DNA of 64,000 bases from Octopus vulgaris. Its lineage: Eukaryota. The notes under the pieces are model-generated. The model did no database searches. It was not told the origin of the DNA and was given only the letters and a program-made list of their open reading frames with translations. The first letter of the stretch is position 1, and each line of letters begins with the position of its first letter. The position numbers and the translations under genes are program-made. Shown piece by piece: positions 40,090-64,000 of the stretch. The stretch is taken from contig OX597820.1 in assembly GCA_951406725.2 (NCBI GenBank), forward strand, positions 73,904,001-73,968,000, read 5' to 3'.

Positions 40090-43000
40090 TTACCTGGTGC
40101 CAAACATACCCATCTTGTATGCCACGGGCTTCCATCTTTTCACAAACATATCTCGTGACAGACACCTCTTCTCCAGCCTGATTTTGCTACTGAGGTGGTA
40201 ACTGAAAAAGTTAATCAACCCCTGGCCGGAGACAAAGGTGCCTGTCACTATACCTTTCGTACGCGTCTTCCATACTATTTCTTTCAGTATGGCTACTACA
40301 CAGAAAAAACAAGCCTTTCTTTCCCTGTTAAGGAAAGGGGGCGGCACAATCTCGATGATAGACTCAGCTGATAGCTGTACTCTTCCCATCACTGACAACA
40401 GTTGTTCAACAAAAGCTATCAGTCCCGATAACTCCGGACACTCCACGAATGCGTGCAAGACGGTCTCCCTATCCTGCTCACATCGCGGGCATGTCGGCGA
40501 GACGGCACTACCGTGCCTTGACAGCTTGTCGCGAACAGGTAAAGCTGCACGGAAACACTGCCAGGCTAGGGATTTCTGGTAATTATCCAGATACCCCGGC
40601 CCGAACGTCCTCCGGAACAGGTTGACCAACTGATTTTCATCGTAGCCCAGGGTCTCCCCCAAGGCGTCTTCGGACTTAATCTCCACTAACCCGCTATAGA
40701 AATCCGTGGTGGAACTCCTGTTGCCGGCGTTGCCCACCCGAGATAGTAGCTGGAGCGCCTGACGGCACTCCAAATGCCATTCACTCGGTTTAGGTCTCCG
40801 CTTGATCCATGCACCGATGTCCGTTAGGGATGTTAACTGGGGAAGGTAGAACCGGACGTGCGGCGACCACACCTGCTCTCCATCCAGGTAAAGCCAGAGG
40901 TGCCTCAACCTTAACGCGAGTTTTCGCATCCTCAGCCAAGGCATCCCTAGCCCACCCTTTAGCGGTTTCTGGCAGCAGACAGAGCGCTTTACAAGTGGCT
41001 TTCCTCCTTTCTACAAAAATCGGAAAAGGATTCTCTCCAACTTGTTCAGCCACAAATCGGGGCAAGGCACCACGGTCAGACGGTAGGTGATTACTGATGC
41101 TATAAACATCTGCACCACCTCCGCCTTCCCTAGCAGGGATAACGCCCGCCCAGACCAGGTCTGGGTTAGAGCGGTCACCTTGTTGGCCACCTCACTCCAA
41201 TTTTTCTCAATCTGGAGGTCTGGCCCGAACCAGACTCCGAGCAGCTTAACAGGACCTTCCGTCCAACGCCCTACGACGTTATTGGACGGCATCGGCTTGC
41301 CCCTCCAGGTGCCGAGTTGCAAACCGACCGACTTGTCCTTGTTAACCTTTGCTCCTGCCACCACCTCGTAGCTTTTCATGGCCTCTTCCACCACTGGAAG
41401 CTGGCCTTCGTCTGCCACGATGATGGAGGTGTCATCCGCATACTCCGTAGCTCCTCTTCCACACCATAGATCATGCGGCGCGCCCCCTAGTGCCTCCAAC
41501 TTCCGCAGCAAAGGCTCAAGAGCCAATACGTATAGGAGCGAGGACAGGGGACACCCTTGACGAACTGAACGCTCGATCCTGAACGGCTTCGAAAAGGAAC
41601 CGTTCACCTTGACTACAGACTCGATGTCGCTATACAAAGCAGCGATCCAACCTCGAAAGGTCGGGCCTAGGCCAGCCTCTCCGAGGACCGCCGCCAGGTA
41701 CCGATGGTCGACCCTATCAAATGCTTTGGACTGGTCTAAATGTACCAGTGCTCCCCCTGCGCCAGAAAGCTTCCCCACCCTCTCTAAGGAGTAGCGTATA
41801 AGGTGGAGATTATCGTGGATCGTTCTGCCGGGGATAGCGCACGTTTGCGCTTCCCCGACAAGTTTGTCCACGACCCGCGCCAACCTTTTTGCTCGCACCT
41901 TGGCCAGAATCTTTAACTCTGTGTTTAACAGAGTTATGGGCCTGAAGTTCCCTATCTCGTCCCCCTTGTTCGGGTCCTTCCTGATCAACGTCACCGCCTC
42001 CCGGCTCGCAGACTTGGGAATTCTCCCATTCTGCTGCCAGTTGGCGTAGACGCTAGCCAGCAGGTGCCCGAACAAGTCCTGGCATACTTCTATAAAATTC
42101 ATAGGGCAGACCATCGAGACCCGGCGACTTCTCCCCGGGGCACTTGCCCAACACCTCGATTACTTCCTCGGTTGTGATTGGCCCTTCACAGCACTCAGCC
42201 TCTCGTGTCAAGAGGCGCGGGCCACCAGACAGGAAGTCCCTAATGGCCTCACCATGATCCAGCGTCCCGCACCTCCCGGACAACTCGGCGAAGTGCTTGT
42301 GAAGTGCCTCACACATCTCGTCCCGCTTCTTGATCGTGCATCCGTTTTCATCAATAAGAGACCCAATTGTGGCATCGTTTCCACGCTGTGTTTCTATCGT
42401 ACGGGCCCATCCGGCAACATTAATTCCCTCACGGCCCAATGCTCGTACTTTAGCCCGGACTCTACATCCCTCATGTTTGGTTTTGAGGTGACGGTCTAAT
42501 GCCGTTCTCGCCGCTAAAATGTGAGATGCAGAGCCCAACCTCAACGCCTCCTCTAAGTTCTTAACTAGTTGCCCTTCTATTCTAGCCCTATCTAGTCTTA
42601 GTTGTTTACTAAATCTAATGGACTCGAATCGAATGGCTCTTTTGAGGGTGAACCACTACCGGTTATTAACCACGGCTCCGGTTAACGCCCTCTGCACTAA
42701 CACCTTAATCCGGCTACGGTATGCCTCGCGTGTCAAAATAGACTTGTTCAACTTCCAGTAGCCGGTTCCTATCTTAAGTGTGCTATCTATGTCCAGTCTA
42801 CACGTGACCATTCTATGGTCAGTATAGGGCACCTGGACGAGCTGTGGACAACTAAAACTAGACTTATCTCTAGTTCTTATCACTATCCTGTCTAGATAAG
42901 ACTTGAACCTTCCGTCGCCACTCATCCAGGTCCACTCTGGGACGTTCGGATGGTCAAGTCTGTAACGATCTGCTAGCTGAAACTGCTTAAGCAGATCCAC

Positions 43001-43492
43001 GAGACGTGAGTTCACTTTCCTATAGATCGAGCCAACGCTATCGATGTGTACGTCAACGATAGCATTAAAGTCCCCTAATATCACTAAAGTCTTCGACGTC
43101 ACGAGAAAGCCCTCTAGGCGCCGATAAAAATCAGTTTGGAAATCTCTAGCACAAGGTGCATAGAGTCCGATCAACCTGAAGGCCTTACTGCTGTATGTCA
43201 CATCAAGGACGACCAGCCCACCTTCTGGGTCTACATAGACTATACTTGTCTGTAGAGCCAAGTCTTTACGGATCAGTACCACTACGCCCCCTCGCCCTCC
43301 GGTCTGGCCAGGAGACATGATTTTCTCGTAGCCATTCAGGAGAGGCGAGAAGGTTTGTAGGCTGTCCAGCTTGGTCTCTGTAGCAACCATCACATATATA
43401 TCATGTGATCTGAGGTCGTCGAGGAAACAAGCCTGCTTCCACTTCGAACTCAGACCACGCACATTTAAACAACCAAGGTTAAGCGAAGCCAT
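40090..43492 (-). pseudogene. LINE ORF2: APE endonuclease, reverse transcriptase and zf-RVT (two premature stops, one frameshift)
   Basis: LNVRGL, ETKL, GDFN, YLDRI, TDH (APE); FRPITLLN, DQSKAFDRV, RQGCPLS, YADD (RT); CPRC..ETVLHAFVEC. TAG stops at 42656 and 41011 are in frame with the downstream ORFs; frameshift at ~42085. Confidence 0.93.
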
Positions 43493-43509
43493 TACAAAAA
43501 GTAAAAGTT

Positions 43510-44935
43510 CTACTTACATTTCGTTGGAGAGGTGGGGGCCGACCTCACCACACGTTTGTGGGCCCCTTCTTTCTCCTCTTTCTTCAGATAGTCCGGCAAG
43601 TTCGCGATATGCCGGATGGCGTTTGGGTGTCTGTCTTTTAATTGTTTGAACGTTGTTTCCGCAATCCACGCGTGTCTATTTCGATCTTTGTATTTGTTGT
43701 ACAGTTTTGCTGACTGATGCTGAACCACAATATCGTTTATGTATTTGTCTTGTGTGTCGAATTCAATTAATATGAGTTCATTTTCTTTTTTGTCTTCTTT
43801 TTCTGGGCCAGTTGAGCGGGATTTTTTTTCCGTGTCTGTGGTGTGTCTTTGTTTTTATTATTTTTTGTAGGGGATGTGGACGGGGATGCTGCACGAATTC
43901 TTTTACGAACTGGTGTAAATCCCACCTCTGATACCTTCATGGTATCGTCTGGGGTAGCAATTGTTTGTTCGGTAGGCGCCGCAGTTTTTAGGGGGTGGGA
44001 GGTTTTAATAGTGTAGGGGTTTGTGAGTGCGAGGGCTGGGTTTTTTCTTCAGTCTGTTTTGGGGTTGGCACCGTAACAGCAGGAGTGGGATTTTTTGTTT
44101 TTGTAGGGGTAGGTGCGTTTGCAAGGGTAGGGACTTTTTTATTATCTGAGGGGCCTGGTGTCTGCGGTTTCTTTTGCTTGTCTGGACAGTCTACACGAAT
44201 GTGGACCTTTTTGCCGCAGGCGTAACAGGTGGGTTTTCGGCCTTCGACCTGTACCCTGAGGGCTACGTTCTCGCCCACGAGCACCCTCTCAGGAAGGAGC
44301 TGCAGGTCCTCCGCTGTTCCTTGAATTAATATATTAATGTTACGCCCGAGCCAAAATCGAGGGGTAGAGCATGTTACTTCTAGTATTTTTATTTTGTCCG
44401 CCCTTTTATATAACAGGGCGGTCACTACCTCTACCGGATCTACTTCCGGCGGGGCTTCTACAATTCTGACCCGGGACGTCCTGCGTCCCCTATAGCTTGG
44501 GAAAAGTACCACCTCCTTGGTTTTTAGGGGGTTCACAGAATGCCCGCGGGCCATTTCTTCCCCCGAGAAGCGGACATCCACAGTGCCATATGCCCGTCCC
44601 CTGGCGACGTACACGATGTCCTTCCAAATCGGGGATAGGCATTTCTCGATGGTGCTTTTTTCAAAGTGTTTGAACCTTCTGCTTTGTGGACAGAAAGTTT
44701 TAAACACTACGGTCCGCTTCTCGGTCTCCACGATACTGGCGGAGGGTGATATTTTAACATCACCACCCTCCTCTTGCATTCTTTTAAATAGCTCGACGAG
44801 CTGGTTGACATCGAAGTCAATGTTCTCGGTAGCCACTGCGGCTACCGCAGAACATTTTTTAACATTGCTCTCCTCAAGAGCACTACTTTCGTGAATAATT
44901 TCAACAGACATTATTCTGTTGAAATTAGACAACAC
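43510..44935 (-). pseudogene. LINE ORF1, gag-like protein with CCHC knuckle (disrupted)
   Basis: 315-aa ORF with CYACGKKVHIRVDC and a Pro/Thr-rich tail; apparent continuation to 43510 in another frame. Confidence 0.75.
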
Positions 44936-47326
44936 AAAAATTACGAGTATTGGTTTCCCACAAAACTGGGAAACCTATAGAAAGTTTTTCTTCCAAAGTA
45001 GTTCAAAAAGCAGTTCAAAAATTCCAATTCCCACCCCCATTCGGGGGAGGGGCACGAAAATAGTCTGGCAGGACTATATATAGTCACGTAAATAAAAAGC
45101 CACAGTGGCTAACAGTTCAACGGTAAGAAATTATTCAATTATTTCCCGGTAAAACCGGAGAACAAGACAGTTCAGCAACGTTTAAAGGCAAATTTTCAGT
45201 AGTAGGAATTCAACAATTAACAACACAGCAAAACTCTTACCGGGAAGAAAACGCGTCCAAACCGTAGTACGGTAGGCAAAGTCACTCTTCTGTCAGTGAG
45301 GTTAGCAAGCTACTTACCACACAGCCACTCCTGCGCCAGTTATTTTTTTTTTTGTAGGAATAATCTGCCCTCAATTGCGTTACTACATCTGCTTGGAACT
45401 GCAGATGGTCGCACCGCTTTCGAGCCCCTCCTGGTTTGGTATATAATATAAACGCATTTACATCCCTCATGTTTACTATATACCAAATCAGGTATCGCCA
45501 CCATATACTATCCTGTCTACCAACCAGATGATAGCACATCATTTGGTTCAGCCGATCTGCACTGCCCATGTACCTGTTATAATCGAGGTTCACAAACAAG
45601 GTGCACCGGTAGATAGAAAATAGATCTGCCTCTTATCTCTGTATGCGATCGCTAGCAGATTTCCTTTCTGCCGTTGGATTATTTTCTTTTTTGAAATTTT
45701 GCTTTATTTTTAAATATCCAACGGCAGCCCTTTTCTACTAGCAATTACTCTTTTCTACTCTAGGCACAAGGCCTGAAATTTTTGGGGAGGGGGCCAGTCG
45801 ATTAGATCGACCCAGTAGCTAACTGGTAGTTAATTTATCGACCCCGAAAGGATGAAAGGCAAAATCGACCTTAGTGGAATTTGAACGCAGAACGTAATGC
45901 CAGACGAAATAACTTATTTCTTTACTACCACTCTGCCAGCTCGCCGCCAGCTTCTAAATCCGCTGCAAGTTTGACCGAACTAAAAAATCGGTAAAAGAAA
46001 TATTATAAAATCCTGGTTATGGTATGGAAGTAATAAATTCCAGACCACATCGTACCCTAGGCCCTTCTGACGAACATTATTGTCTCTTTTCCCAGTATAA
46101 AAAATAAACCCACAGAAATTCCCAGTATTTGCTTCGAAAATTTTCCAAACTTTGATCCCCCACGTTCGTGGGCTTTCCTGGCATATATTGTCGGAAGTGT
46201 ACCCTTCTTTTATACCTCACTATGTCCTCATCGACGGATACATATCAGGGTTATAGAGTGTTTTATATGCGTTCTGGATGCAGTCGAAGAGGGGTCTTAC
46301 TTTAAAGAAGAGATCAAAGTTTGGTTCTCCACATACTGGGGTACTGTTTGTGTCTCTCACATGTAAATACTGGTTCAGTTTCACAAATCGTGTCCTTGAC
46401 ATAATACTGGAAACGTACGATCGCCAAAAGATTCCTGATTATTCCAAGTAATTTGTAATTCTGGGTAATTGTTTTATACCCATAATAACATTTATGGCAA
46501 AAAAAAAATGCCCGTATTTCTTATGGCAAAAAATGCCCGCATTTTTTTCCAGTTAGTTTACATTCTGCATAGCGGTTTATTTTCGCATTGATGGCTTCAA
46601 ACAAGCTTACTTGAAAAACAAGAAAAAAGGCTTAACGGTTTCGCTTTCTGAGAAAGACTATGTATAGATCCTGTCTCAGAAAAATTGTTAATAAAAATAT
46701 TTTAAAACTTTTTACTCCATTCAGGTGTAAAATCGTCCTCAATGTCACTATTGCTGCTTTTAGTTTTTTCAGAATCGCTGCTTTCAGTTTCGGACACAGA
46801 AATATCCGATTCATTTTCATACACCACGTGCTTTTGTAGTTCACTCATACTTTTGCTCGATTTCTCAATATCTTCCGTTAAAAAGCCCTCAAATTCAGAA
46901 TCACTGCTTGATAGCATGAAACTCCTATCCATTTTAAAAGTTGAAGAAAATCGTCGAAGAAAAAATGTGAAAAAAATCTCTCAAAATTCACAGAGTTCAG
47001 ACATCACGCCAAACAATGTCGGATGCTATTACTCGATTATTTACAAAGTGAAGTCACGCATTTTCACGAATGCACTAACGAGATTTGTGTTGAAATTCAC
47101 ATTTAAATAACAATGGGTTCTCTCGGCTGGGTTGGTCGGTTGAACCAAAAAACTTTTCAGCCGGCTGCGGCCGGGTTGGTATCCAAAGGGTTAAGATAAA
47201 CCTTTCCTTTTCACAATACAGCTGGAATGTAGACTGAAGACATGCTTAGGCAACAACCAGTCTTCCATCCGCTCCAAAAAAAAAAAAAAAGGACAACAAA
47301 CCATTCCTTAAGTCTGTACCTACAGA

Positions 47327-54039: not shown

Positions 54040-56472
54040 ATATTTAATTGAAAGTTAATCATCAATGTACTTTCCCTGATTATCTATGACTTGCTTCCAT
54101 CTCTTTACAAGCTTTTTAATCCCATCAATGTAAAACTCTTTTGGTTTCAAAGCGAAGAACTCGTAAATGTCAGGTTCGACCTCCTCCTGGCTTGCGAAAG
54201 TTGTGTCCCCCAAATAATTCTGTAAACTATTAAAGAAATGGTAGTCTGAAGGAGCAAGGTCGGGAGAATAAGGTGGATGAAGAAATTTTTCCCAATCGAC
54301 CTCTTCGATCTTCTGTGATGTGATCTTTGCAGTGTAGGGTTGCGCATTGTCCTGATGAAGCGTCACTCGTTTTCGACTCACTAAAGCGGCCCTTTTTTCT
54401 TTCAAACCTTGGTTCAAACGCTCTAATTGCTGACAGTAGACTTGAGCATTGATTGTTGCATTAGGTGGTAACAATATAAAGTGAATTACGCCTTTGCAAT
54501 CGCACCAGATAGAGAGAATAACCTTTTCCTCATGAAGCTCCCTTCTCAGTTGTGGTTGAGCATTTTCTTTTTTACCAAGCCACTGTTTACGATGTTTTAC
54601 ATTTCGATAGAAAATCCATTTTTCGTCACAAGTCTATCGAAAATGGATGAAATGAGTTTGCGAGAATGGAGAGAAGAGCAGATGCCAACTCGGGATTTGC
54701 GGTTGCTATCGGACAATACATAAGGCACCTATTTTCCAAGTTTAGGAATCTTTCCACGTTGTTGAAGATGACGATGAACAGTTGTATGGTTTGAAGTAAG
54801 CTTTATTGCCAATTCTTCAACTGATAATGACGGATTTTCTTCAAGTAATGCCTCAAGGAACTTATCATCAAACTCAACTGGACGTCCTTTTCGATATTCA
54901 TCTTCAATTTTGAAAACGATCTCCTGCAAGTTCTATCATTCAAGCACTTTCCCATAAAATGAGTATGTTTCGAGTCACTTCGGCTGCAGCGTAACCTTTA
55001 TTGTACTCATAAAGAATCATATGTGCCTTAAATGCTCCTTGGATACTTCCATGTTAAAAGGGTTTTAATCAAAGCAATTTTAGGGTGTCCACGAAGTCTG
55101 GGTACATGAAATAAAATCATAACATAAACAAATAAATATAAGAAATAATAAATTTCCTTTTTTACTTTTATTTAAATTAAATAAAAAAAACTTTACTTTT
55201 CTAAATTTTTTTGTTATTTTTTCTACAGATGATCGAATGATAGCTCTGTCTAAAGAAGAAAGAATCGAGTTGGTATTATTAAGTAGACGAGATGGATGGT
55301 CTTACGCAAAATTGCGGAAGAATTTAATCTTCGACACCCTTATAGGCAACCTATTTATTTTACTGCCGTCGGGAAATTGATCAAGAAATTTAAAGAAACA
55401 GGCAGTGTTTTGGATAAACCCCGTTCCGGGCGACCAAAGACTTCAGATGAAACGAAAGAGGCTGTCATGGCTAAAGTTTCTGCTAGCCCAAAGAAATCAC
55501 TTCGTCGGACATCCACGGTGTTAGGTGATCCAAATCCAACCATCCACAAAATGCTGGTTGAGGAAAAGTTTCATCGATACAACCTACAGATATTGCATCA
55601 CTTAAATGAAGACGACCCTGATAGACGAATGTAGACGTGCGAATGGCTCTCAGATAAAAAGGATGAAATATCAATTTTACGAAAAACTTTGTGGTCAACT
55701 GATAGAATCTTCTATACTGGTCTCGAGGTAATCCACATTGGATGGATCTATCCAAACAAGCAAGGCAGCAAAAAGGTGATAGTGTGGTGTGGTTTGTGGA
55801 AAGCTCTTGTTCTAGGACCCTTCTTCATTGAACATGTAACGGATGAGACTTATGTAAACATATTGAAAGACAAATTATATCTCAAATTGAGCGCCTAGGC
55901 AAGAGCCTTCCGAATTGGTTTCAGCAGGGTGGGGCCCCTACCCATTTTGCCACAACTGTTAAAGATTGGCTTCATGACACTTTTCCTCACTGGATTGAAA
56001 GAAGGGCTCATATGGAAAGGTCCCCTCGTTCACCAGACCTTTCTCCCCTTGATTTCTTTTTCTGGGGTATGTTGAAAGAGAAAGATTACAGATTTAAAAC
56101 ACATGAGAGAACGCATTACCAGTCAGTGTGCTGAAATTGATGGCAATGTAGACTTATTTAATCAAGTTCACCTGAATTTAGCAAGGCGCATCAAGTTATG
56201 CATTGAAAAATGATGGAAATCACTTTGAAAATATTATTTATTAGTATTATAATTAAATAAAATTGTTTTGTTTTAAAAGTATGTGTTAATCTCCATGTAC
56301 GCAGACTTTGTGGACACCGTCTATTATTTTGTAAAACAATATTTAATTAGTTTAAACGTACACAAATGCATAATAATAATTTTTAATTGAATTAGACATT
56401 TGAAAATACTATTAAATTTCATTCAAATCTAAAAAAAAGGTAAAATTGGACAGAACTGATTGGATGACTTGA
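54040..56472 (-). mobile_element. Decayed mariner (DD34D-type) transposon interrupted by a nested element
   Basis: HQDNAQP and HPPYSPDLAPSDYHFF motifs (ORF 54055..54474), HTH region 54729..55050, and a 5' TIR-like end near 56445-56472. Confidence 0.85.
55083..56320 (+). mobile_element. Tc1/mariner-superfamily element, rosa/DD41D-like (spacing counted as 40), decayed
   Basis: TIRs ggtgtccac.aagtctg.gtacatg at both ends. KFKETGSV.D.PRSGRP and FQQ(G)GAPTH...SPRSPDLSPLDFFFWG. Confidence 0.85.
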
Positions 56473-61199: not shown

Positions 61200-62445
61200 G
61201 GTATTAAGCTGTTCTATAGCAGCACCAACAGCTGCAGCAGCAACAACGACTAGTGTTACTACTCCCACCACCAATACTACTACTGCTGCTACCACCATCG
61301 CCATTACTACTACTACTACTACTATAACCCAATCACCATCGCTACAACTACAGCGGCCATCTCTATATCTTCACTACCAGCTCCACCACCATCATCATCA
61401 ACAACAAACTCTACTACCAAATTTTGGCACAAGGCCAGCAATTTTAAGGGATGGTGTAAGTCGATTGCAACGATCCCTGACCTCAACTGGTACTTAGTTT
61501 ATCGACCCCAAAAGGATGAATGCCGAAGTCGACCTCTGCGGAATTTGAACTCGGAACTTAAAGACGCACAAAATGCTGCTAAGCATTTCGCCCGGTGCCT
61601 AACGATTCAGCCAGTTCACCACCGTTGCTCCACCAAACACATTGAAACGACTACACTTAGACTATCAACCCTATCACCACCACAACCACCACCATCTCGC
61701 CAATATCATCACCATCAGCATCGCCACCACCATCGCCAACATCGCCACAATCGTCAGCACCATCACCACCATCACTCCCACCACCACCACCATCATCGCC
61801 ACCAACACCGTCACCACCATCACCATCACTATCATCATCGCCATCATCATCATCATCATCACCATCGGTGTCATCACCAGCATCATCGCTACCAATGAAA
61901 GGAGCCAAAAATAGAACCCCTCCACCACCACAGCCACCACCAATACTAACATAACCACCAGCACTAGCACCACCAGCACTAGCGCAGTACCTACCACCAC
62001 CACCACCACCACCACCACCACCACCACCACCACCACAACCACCACCACCACAACACCACCACCACACCACCACCACCACAAACACCACAAACACCTAAAC
62101 CAGCACCAGCAGCCCAACCAGTAGCAGCACCACCATCTACCACCACCGCCACCACCACAAAAAGCAAAACCACCTCAACCACCCACCCCAACACCACCAA
62201 CCACTCCACCAATAACACCAAAACCACTTCCCTCTTCATGGCTACCGCATGTACCACCACCACCAGCACCACCGTTACCACAAAACGCAAACCACCACCA
62301 TTACCACCACCACCACCACCACCACCACCATTACCACAAAAAGCAAAACCTCCACAACCACCCACCCCGCCACTCCATCACCAACACCAAAACCATTTCC
62401 CTCTTCATGGCTCCCGCATACACCACCACCACCATCACCACCTCT
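61200..62445. repeat. Degenerate CAC/CAT/CAG low-complexity region with a SINE-A fragment
   Basis: Directly visible; produces the His/Pro/Gly-rich spurious ORFs. Confidence 0.9.
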
Positions 62446-62994: not shown

Positions 62995-63037
62995 TGCATG
63001 AAGACTTTAATACATATGAAATACATATACGCATGCA

Positions 63038-63073
<36 letters not shown>

Positions 63074-63175
63074 TATATGTATGTATAAATGTAAATACAC
63101 ACACATACATATATATATATATATACATATATGCATACATACATATATATATATAAATATATATATACATATATG

Positions 63176-63226
<51 letters not shown>

Positions 63227-63349
63227 ATGTATACAAATATATGTATATATATGTATACGTATACAAATATATATATATATATGTATGTATATGTATACAA
63301 ATATATATATATATATGTATGTATATGTATACAAATATATATACATACA

Positions 63350-63428
<79 letters not shown>
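62995..63428. repeat. (TA)n/(TACA)n compound microsatellite (one of dozens in the window)
   Basis: Directly visible. Confidence 0.95.
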
Positions 63429-63433
<5 letters not shown>

Positions 63434-64000
63434 TCGCCATACTAATATGGCATTCTTATAAAAATAAGAATAAAGCTGTCCGCTTATTAGCTCCATGAGG
63501 CCATCGCCTTAAGTTAGCTATTTGATACACAAACTGTATCCATATAACCTTCGAACAAGGGAGGTCAGTCGCTCCACACTACTTGACCGGCAGCTACAGA
63601 CGCGTTTCGGGGTATTGCCCCTTTTCAATGCAGCGTAGCCAGCCAGTAGGTGTCGCTGCATTGAAACGCGTCTGTAGCTGCCGGTCAAGTAGTGTGGAGC
63701 GACTGACCTCCCTTGTTCGAAGGTTATATGGATACAGTTTGTGTATCAAATAGCTAACTTAAGGCGATGGCCTCATGGAGCTAATAAGCGGACAGCTTTA
63801 TTCTTATTTTTATAAGAATGCCATATTAGTATGGCGATAACTATTATTTTCCGGGAACGCTGCCGCTGTTCTCTTTTAGAGAGACTTAGTAATTTTAATA
63901 TTTCTATTATTGAAAACAAGTGGATGTATTCCACCGAAACTAGGTAAATAAAACCATCGAACAGAGATTGTCGGAAGCGACACCTACTGGCTGGCTACGC
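63427..64000. mobile_element. Hammerhead-bearing inverted plus tandem repeat element (Penelope pLTR / retrozyme-like), running off the window end
   Basis: 63427-63634 mirrors 63655-63844. The apex 63632-63656 reappears inverted at 63976-64000. Confidence 0.8.
63593..63634 (-). ncRNA. Hammerhead with U3-A8 core, 6-bp stem I, GUC site
   Basis: Minus strand: gctgca-TTGAAAA-GGGG caata CCCC-GAAA-CGCG-TC-tgtagc. Confidence 0.75.

What the first reader, a model, noticed from the sequence alone, without database searches (positions are those of the whole stretch)
63427..64000. Inverted-then-tandem ribozyme repeat with its apex at the ribozyme; ~360-nt retrozyme-like monomer
Seen: a near-perfect ~190-208-bp inverted repeat starting in (TA)n. 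The minus arm has an intact U3-A8 hammerhead (63593-63634). The plus arm has the same motif with stem II cleanly deleted between the two GAAA repeats (18 nt lost). The plus strand continues, and its last 25 nt are the sequence that precedes the ribozyme in the minus copy, so a new copy should start at ~63999. This gives a unit of ~344 bp (~362 with stem II). Known: an inverted truncated pLTR followed by tandem pLTR is the Penelope signature, and retrozyme monomers are a few hundred nt. Inference: a very recent insertion formed by template switching at the ribozyme.
Basis: partly seen in the sequence, partly recalled or inferred. Interest (0 to 1): 0.8.

Follow-up and report, generated by a model that had tools for sequence, protein, structure and literature searches.

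The report
Twin-ended hammerhead retrozyme, Penelope-type insertion
This is one very young copy of a 362-base non-coding repeat with a hammerhead RNA motif and over a thousand insertions in this animal genome; its two-armed insertions pair one short end with one long end almost without exception (146 of 147 typed), which likely records a Penelope-type reverse transcriptase copying the RNA from both nicked DNA strands at once.

Summary
The hammerhead (63593-63634, minus strand), the 18-nt stem II deletion and the inverted arms are real. The next stretch regenerates the ribozyme, and the family unit is 362 nt. It is a metazoan non-LTR retrozyme with Penelope-like (PLE) insertion anatomy, mostly in (TA)n, with at least 1151 insertion ends.

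Apexes are not fixed at the ribozyme: they scatter around the unit, with some enrichment just 3' of the cut site, and this locus lies on the other side. The deletion is unique in the genome.

What is fixed are the outer ends. Of 165 head-to-head pairs, 146 pair a unit-position ~175 end with a ~238 end (63-nt tail), 1 is homotypic and 18 have one atypical end. This held in a held-out set (52 of 59, 0 homotypic). The two arms share haplotype (87 of 87 at one site; one later locus disagrees), 12-14-bp target duplications occur, and either arm can be multimeric. A young Neptune-like PLE here follows the same rule (9 of 9).

Best reading: twin priming by a PLE enzyme. A circular template is inferred, not shown. 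The scan noted similar elements in this genome before.

The parts
63020..63426 (.). (TACA)n/(TA)n microsatellite target, left flank
   Evidence: sequence
63427..63657 (-). Inverted arm (short-end arm): unit positions 304 to about 172-175, numbered from the base after the ribozyme cut
63427..63434 (-). Short outer end (unit ~172-175, CTATTAT motif) running into (TA)n; inferred reverse-transcription start 1
63593..63634 (-). Intact minimal type I hammerhead motif, U3-A8 core, palindromic stem III; predicted cut between 63599 and 63598
63636..63653 (.). 18-nt unpaired loop of the fold-back
63654..63657 (.). 4-nt microhomology (CGCT) joining the two arms head to head (unit 304/326); same junction at independent locus L011
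63654..64000 (+). Forward (tailed) arm, first part: unit 326-362 with the deletion, then a full unit from 63673; continues beyond the window through an intact hammerhead and ends at unit 238 (window-equivalent 64273, G000:C7:73968273) in (TA)n
63655..63678 (+). Broken hammerhead: 18 nt of stem II lost between two GAAA repeats (break within 63663-63666); cut site at 63672/63673 retained; unique in the genome
63845..63910 (+). The ~63-nt 'tail' segment of the unit (about positions 175-238) between the two fixed ends; here internal to the first full unit

Best explanation
This is a very young insertion of a 362-nt non-coding hammerhead repeat (a non-LTR retrozyme) that was likely written into a (TA)n tract by the reverse transcriptase-endonuclease of a Penelope-like element priming from both nicked strands. 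Shown: head-to-head arms, two fixed outer ends 63 nt apart used one per arm, shared haplotype across arms, short microhomology at the inner junction, 12-14-bp target duplications at some non-microsatellite sites, multimeric arms on either side, and no linked coding sequence. Inferred: the enzyme, probably a dimer of a Neptune-like PLE acting in trans, nicks both strands about 12-14 bp apart. One 3' end starts cDNA at unit ~175 and the other at ~238 on RNA from the same source. Both copy upstream through the ribozyme, often for more than one unit, stop (preferentially in the long helix just 3' of the cut site) and join by microhomology. The stem II loss here is likely a single polymerase jump across the hairpin at the GAAA repeats, about 10 nt from the junction. 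Whether the template is a monomer circle or an uncleaved multimer is unresolved; I put the circle at about 45%.
For: End pairing: 94 of 106 head-to-head pairs short+long, 1 long+long, 0 short+short, 11 with one atypical end. Held-out set, predictions noted first: 52 of 59, 0 homotypic, 7 atypical. In an end-unbiased chromosome-1 sample, 88 of 95 arm ends fall at the two sites. Arm haplotype agreement: site 128, 58 of 58 and 29 of 29; site 219, 33 of 33 and 14 of 14; about 50% expected. Either arm can be longer (46 versus 48), which simple fold-back of one cDNA cannot give for a tailed partner. Junction overlap of 2-9 nt in 88 of 146. Target duplications of 12-14 bp at 4 of 20 insertions with a non-(TA)n flank. 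172 of 188 outer ends sit in TA-rich flanks. A young autonomous Neptune-like family (RT PF00078 above cut-off, GIY-YIG PF01541 weak) has a U3-A8 hammerhead, (TA)n targets and one tailed plus one untailed end in 9 of 9 two-armed loci. In vitro, an anole PLE nicks and extends both strands, starts at two RNA sites that bound the tail, and is predicted to be a dimer (PMC11167929, main text read). Hammerhead helices covary across subfamilies: 97% of cells paired, 4 pairs changed on both sides including the stem III palindrome.
Against: No autonomous PLE with a homologous terminal repeat was found. The Neptune-like family's repeat does not align to the unit and its tail is 47-48 nt. The anole enzyme showed no strand preference for start sites in vitro, so the strict one-per-arm rule needs coupling that has not been shown. 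18 of 56 chromosome-1 insertions are single-armed, and 23 of 80 held-out loci had no pair. In-register zero-loop palindromes are in excess (5 of 94 versus 0.22 expected; 2 of 52 versus 0.17), which points to fold-back in some insertions. Sites 350 and 352 show some arm discordance (2 of 30 and 4 of 30; 1 of 11), and one further locus (L359) disagrees at site 128. Cleavage, expression and circularisation are untested.
Confidence: 0.72

Rival explanations
1. Fold-back hybrid: one long cDNA is made, its 3' end snaps back and copies itself to form the inverted arm, and the second nick contributes only a short primed piece (or an endonuclease cut) that fixes the other end.
For: Excess of exact in-register palindromic apexes. 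Three young loci (L031, L039, L304) share a variant in both arms only in the last pass, as a copied polymerase error would. Self-priming was proposed for PLE palindromic junctions in PMC3846280 (passages).
Against: Most junctions have loops of hundreds of nt. 102 rare variants at sites covered by both arms are in one arm only, versus 13 shared, though post-insertion mutation could supply many. A small-loop asymmetry seen in the discovery set did not replicate. It still needs both fixed start sites.
Confidence: 0.15
2. The unit is only the terminal repeat (pLTR) of an undetected autonomous PLE. Copies are truncated ends, and the tandem arrays grew locally after insertion by slippage or unequal exchange, as suggested for retrozyme birth in the 2026 preprint.
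For: The anatomy is that of PLE ends (PMC8557442 passages). Variants shared by adjacent units within one arm (L264, L352) show some local tandem dynamics. The preprint 10.64898/2026.07.22.740005 proposes local amplification.
Against: 0 of 77 free 5' ends lead into a PLE reading frame or a shared upstream PLE sequence. Arms that pass unit position 1 run on into position 362. Both arms exceed one unit in 23 of 146 insertions, and 113 of 146 have an arm crossing the cut site, many at 99-100% identity. Long arrays come in many haplotypes, each uniform along its length.
Confidence: 0.08
3. One reading: the inversion is made by template switching triggered at the ribozyme, and the deletion and apex are part of that event type.
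For: Inner ends are enriched in the long helix 3' of the cut site. The same 304/326 junction recurs at L011. The deletion lies about 10 nt from the junction.
Against: Apexes scatter over the whole unit. Junction pairs are not enriched at RNA base pairs (4 observed, 6.6 expected). The deletion is unique. No arm start at unit position 1 in the unbiased sample. It does not explain the two fixed outer ends.
Confidence: 0.04
4. Assembly fold-back artefact.
For: No public contig spanned this exact junction, which is inconclusive.
Against: Different end positions and unrelated flanks on the two arms; 146 analogous insertions; target duplications at four of them.
Confidence: 0.01

Closest known systems
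Metazoan non-LTR retrozymes (Cervera & de la Pena 2020, PMC7229834; Li, Clavereau & Pollet 2026, bioRxiv 10.64898/2026.07.22.740005)
   Same: Non-coding tandem unit of 362 nt (mussel repeats 350-390 bp), type I hammerhead in each unit, 41.7% GC, dispersed high copy number, PLEs present in the same genome.
   Different: The core is the U3-A8 variant. The family shows the full PLE integration signature (head-to-head arms, fixed short and long ends). The 2020 paper names PLEs only as candidate mobilisers and has no occurrence of 'inverted'; the 2026 preprint leaves the mechanism open and suggests local amplification. Circular RNA is not shown here.
Endonuclease-positive Penelope-like elements, Neptune-like (PMC8557442; PMC3846280; PMC11167929)
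   Same: 5'-truncated inverted copy, partial tandems, a tail at only one end, (TA)n bias, target duplications, palindromes and microhomology at the inverted junction.
   Different: No reading frame. The tail is about 63 nt against the reported 30-40 nt (47-48 nt in the autonomous family here). No parent terminal repeat identified.
U3-A8 minimal hammerheads of Cercyon PLEs in Schistosoma (PMC4209133)
   Same: Same core covariation, palindromic stem III predicted to need a dimer, copies 100-700 bp apart on opposite strands.
   Different: Here it has canonical-length stems I (6 bp) and II (4 bp), a long extended stem I rod, and sits in a self-contained tandem unit.
Twin priming of LINE-1 (recalled, not from a call)
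   Same: Both nicked strands prime on the RNA, giving a head-to-head inversion joined by microhomology inside a target duplication.
   Different: LINE-1's second site is variable and upstream. Here both sites are fixed, 63 nt apart, and the two arms copy overlapping template.

Membership tests
Non-LTR retrozyme | Type I hammerhead motif in each repeat unit | tested here: met
   Motif in complete units, U3-A8 core; covariation across 16 subfamily variants. No Rfam hit at gathering threshold.
Non-LTR retrozyme | Short tandem unit of about 150-450 bp, low GC, non-coding | tested here: met
   362 nt; GC 41.7%; longest stop-free stretch about 55 codons; arrays up to about 11 units.
Non-LTR retrozyme | [quoted passage not shown] | tested here: met
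   Met by the family (for example L352, 10 units). Not met at this locus: the forward arm has one broken and one intact motif.
Non-LTR retrozyme | Self-cleavage | not testable with these tools
   Structure and covariation only.
Non-LTR retrozyme | Expressed as linear and circular monomer RNA | tested here: inconclusive
   No holder on record as RNA; only contigs, which cannot tell a circle from a tandem.
PLE-type insertion | Inverted 5'-truncated copy adjacent to a direct or tandem copy | tested here: met
   38 of 56 end-unbiased insertions are multi-armed; 165 head-to-head pairs.
PLE-type insertion | Tail at one end only | tested here: met
   146 short+long versus 1 homotypic; tail about 63 nt, longer than the 30-40 nt in print.
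PLE-type insertion | Target duplication and (TA)n bias | tested here: met
   12-14 bp at 4 of 20 non-(TA)n-flanked insertions; 172 of 188 ends TA-rich. Not readable at this locus.
Autonomous Penelope-like element | RT plus GIY-YIG reading frame between the terminal repeats | tested here: not met
   No PLE frame upstream of 77 free 5' ends; none in the window.
Derivative of a specific PLE terminal repeat | Sequence homology to the pLTR of an autonomous PLE in the same genome | tested here: inconclusive
   No match to the two young families examined (55 loci); only the top 150 of 17,853 and 25,864 candidates were scored.

The most novel reading that the evidence does not exclude
The family is a population-scale record of the unsolved PLE integration step: an enzyme dimer primes both target strands at two fixed RNA sites, always one each, and both copies roll around a 362-nt ribozyme circle. 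Retrozyme tandem arrays would then be written at the moment of integration by a PLE enzyme in trans, not grown locally afterwards.
Probability: 0.38. Interest if true: 0.75.

Novelty: new member of a known kind. Interest (0 to 1): 0.5.

Why it matters
How Penelope-like elements make their tandem and inverted structures, and what moves animal retrozymes, are both stated as open in the papers read. This family gives over a thousand young, near-identical, 362-nt insertions with a countable rule: one short and one long end per two-armed insertion, from one template source. That turns both questions into a small in vitro test with a defined RNA and an apparently intact candidate enzyme from the same genome. 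The element class, the tail and the U3-A8 core are each known; the strict pairing, the haplotype coupling and the twin-priming reading were not found in my searches.

Tried and rejected
(1) 'Tailed arm trails the short arm on one RNA': the discovery set had 16 offsets in -40..0 (4.85 expected) and 0 in +1..+74 (6.76 expected). The held-out set gave 6 (2.99) and 6 (5.22), so it is dropped.
(2) Junctions at RNA base pairs: 4 observed, 6.6 expected, rejected.
(3) Rolling on a circle leaving a pile of offsets near -362: 3 observed, 2.5 expected, nothing.
(4) Variant 114G as a marker of a source array: its 3 other occurrences are on other haplotypes. Variant 262A is private to one locus and sits in the three copies nearest the apex, so gene conversion is possible. 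L232 and L239 were dropped as uninformative (subfamily allele, alignment ambiguity).
(5) Autonomous parent: two young PLE families and older relatives showed no homology. A lead from an RNA-guess contig was an old degraded copy.
(6) Master satellite: longest array among 40 scored of 1044 candidates is about 11 units.
(7) Expression: no RNA holder listed. Contigs of four RNA-guess runs cover the unit and close the 362-nt period, which cannot separate circle from tandem. No contig spanned this locus's junction.
(8) Alignment A1 held one mis-specified row and was replaced by A2.

Full report
Observation. The sequence and repeat search confirm a perfect 182-nt inverted repeat, 63427-63608 / 63663-63844. 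It extends to 209 and 191 nt once one 18-nt gap is allowed, around an 18-nt loop. The minus arm carries a type I hammerhead motif at 63593-63634 with a U3-A8 core, 4-bp stem II and palindromic stem III; the region folds with z -3.8. Rfam finds nothing at gathering threshold. The window is G000:C7:73904001-73968000. Numbering the unit from the base after the predicted cut, the locus is: (TA)n, inverted arm 304 to ~175, a 4-nt microhomology, forward arm 326 (with the deletion) through one full unit to 238, (TA)n.

Family. The unit is 362 nt (56 complete monomers, 26 distinct, three main haplotypes), 41.7% GC and non-coding. Exact-pattern counts in the 2.8-Gb assembly: 1740 for an internal 28-mer, 1151 for the long end joined to TA, 150 for one form of the short end. 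Older subfamilies at 80-88% exist, and a distant relative has a C3-G8-type core. Across 16 variants I chose, the hammerhead helices are 97% paired with 4 pairs changed on both sides, including the centre of the stem III palindrome; relatedness limits that control. The stem II deletion occurs once in the genome.

The rule of two ends. I merged the fetched loci into 141 segments; they came from top hits to the window, end-anchored patterns and internal patterns, so the set is mixed. Of 106 head-to-head pairs, 94 had one end at 165-180 and one at 233-240, 1 had two long ends, none had two short ends, and 11 had one atypical end. I noted predictions and fetched 80 further loci, 69 anchored on the short end and 11 on the long end: 59 pairs, 52 short+long, 0 homotypic, 7 atypical; 23 loci had no pair. 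In 56 chromosome-1 insertions picked only by the internal pattern, 38 are multi-armed and 18 single-armed, and 88 of 95 arm ends fall at the two sites. Either arm can be longer (46 versus 48). In 113 of 146 at least one arm crosses the cut site, in 54 both do, and in 23 both exceed one unit. Junctions overlap by 2-9 nt in 88 of 146. Four of 20 insertions with a non-(TA)n flank show 12-14-bp target duplications, so these are single events at staggered nicks. 172 of 188 ends are TA-flanked.

One source for both arms. Among young insertions the arms agree at site 128 in 58 of 58 and 29 of 29 and at site 219 in 33 of 33 and 14 of 14, where about half is expected. Sites 350 and 352 agree in 28 of 30 and 26 of 30, then 10 of 11. 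One later locus disagrees at 128 (L359). Rare variants at sites covered by both arms are shared in 13 cases and confined to one arm in 102.

Circle or multimer. For a circle: long arrays come in many haplotypes, each uniform along its length, some with locus-private variants in every unit, and no array beyond about 11 units was seen among 40 scored. Against a simple circle with two independent copies: three young loci share a variant in both arms only in the last pass (L031, L039, L304). That fits a heterogeneous multimer, fold-back copying or arm-to-arm conversion. Exact in-register palindromes are in excess in both sets. I leave this unresolved.

Apex position. Inner ends scatter around the unit. 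In the unbiased sample 45 of 95 start in positions 1-62, against 5 in 63-97 and 7 in 301-362. The held-out set is weaker: 30, against 20 in 63-124 and 16 in 301-362. Positions 1-62 form the 3' strand of a long rod extending stem I, so stalling is plausible; a transcript start near position 40 is the alternative. This locus's junction (304/326) lies outside the hot spot but recurs at L011.

The mover. None of 77 free 5' ends leads into a PLE frame or shared PLE sequence, so the unit is non-autonomous. The genome holds a young Neptune-like family with many near-identical 753-aa frames (RT above cut-off, GIY-YIG weak; clade name by resemblance, recalled). It has its own U3-A8 hammerhead, targets (TA)n and shows one tailed and one untailed end in 9 of 9 two-armed loci, with a 47-48-nt tail; six of these nine were picked as inverted pairs. 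Its repeat does not align to the unit, so it is a candidate, not an identified partner. Two other Neptune-like ends also carry U3-A8 motifs.

Literature seen. PMC11167929: parts 1-2 of 4 and passages: both strands nicked and extended, two start sites bound the tail, predicted dimer, uncleaved RNA the main substrate, no model for the inversion. PMC8557442: passages: tail often at one end only, inverted 5' copy, (TA)n bias. PMC3846280: passages: palindromic junctions, self-priming proposed. PMC4209133: part 1 of 4: U3-A8 in Cercyon, dimeric hammerheads. PMC7229834: abstract, sections 14 and 17, passages: circles, PLEs as candidate movers. Preprint 10.64898/2026.07.22.740005: parts 1-3 of 5: pLTR origin, local amplification, mechanism open; its supplements are closed and no supplements were read for any paper. 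Searches for Penelope with twin priming, and related terms, found no such model; the library lacks most subscription papers, including older Penelope papers where a model may exist.

Verdict. The element is a new member of a known class, and this locus is an ordinary young copy with a one-off deletion. The interest lies in the family-wide end rule, which replicated in held-out loci and makes the PLE inversion step and retrozyme mobilisation directly testable. Earlier scan notes describe similar elements in this genome; they are unchecked and I do not count them as support.

Noticed in passing
L016:2638-8009; L261:2590-7937; L338:1840-2521: A LINE with zinc-knuckle ORF1 and endonuclease-RT ORF2 interrupts the retrozyme at about unit 302-317, just upstream of hammerhead stem I, with a duplication of about 16 nt at L016. 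The same LINE 3' end precedes the unit at three independent loci, suggesting site-specific targeting.
   Followed up: partly
L200 (G000:C9:2165500-2175400) and L201-L210, L219: Young autonomous Neptune-like PLE with a separate upstream frame of about 367 aa, a 753-aa RT-endonuclease frame, a U3-A8 hammerhead and a 47-48-nt tail.
   Followed up: partly
L213-L217; L005:2488-3560: A second young PLE family (Penelope/Poseidon-like by resemblance) with many near-identical copies; no hammerhead was found at its ends by my simple pattern.
   Followed up: no
L047:1525-2400 and L071:450-1506: Two other Neptune-like elements end tail to tail with retrozyme short ends in the same small (TA)n tract, each with a U3-A8 hammerhead-like motif and palindromic stem III.
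   Followed up: partly
L190:3270-3560: A distant relative of the unit (69% over 91 nt) carries a canonical CTGACGA core, suggesting a C3-G8 to U3-A8 change within the lineage.
   Followed up: no
window 40090-44974, minus strand: A broken LINE of similar organisation (ORF1 with zinc knuckle, endonuclease, RT pieces).
   Followed up: no
window 54055-54633, minus strand: A mariner-type transposase fragment, by resemblance.
   Followed up: no
window 61900-62440: (CCA)n-rich tract with an internal ~91-nt duplication (62183-62273 / 62352-62442, 82%); reads as proline-rich in one frame, probably a simple repeat.
   Followed up: no
runs X12, X17, X18 (organism labels C, E, F): Each holds a single clean 392-nt contig (362 plus 30), the signature of a closed 362-nt cycle, with few or no variant contigs; circle, tandem or trace host DNA cannot be told apart.
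   Followed up: no
L045 (G000:C1:28105376-28106860): The same two-armed insertion occurs twice 1.1 kb apart, a local duplication; counted once.
   Followed up: no
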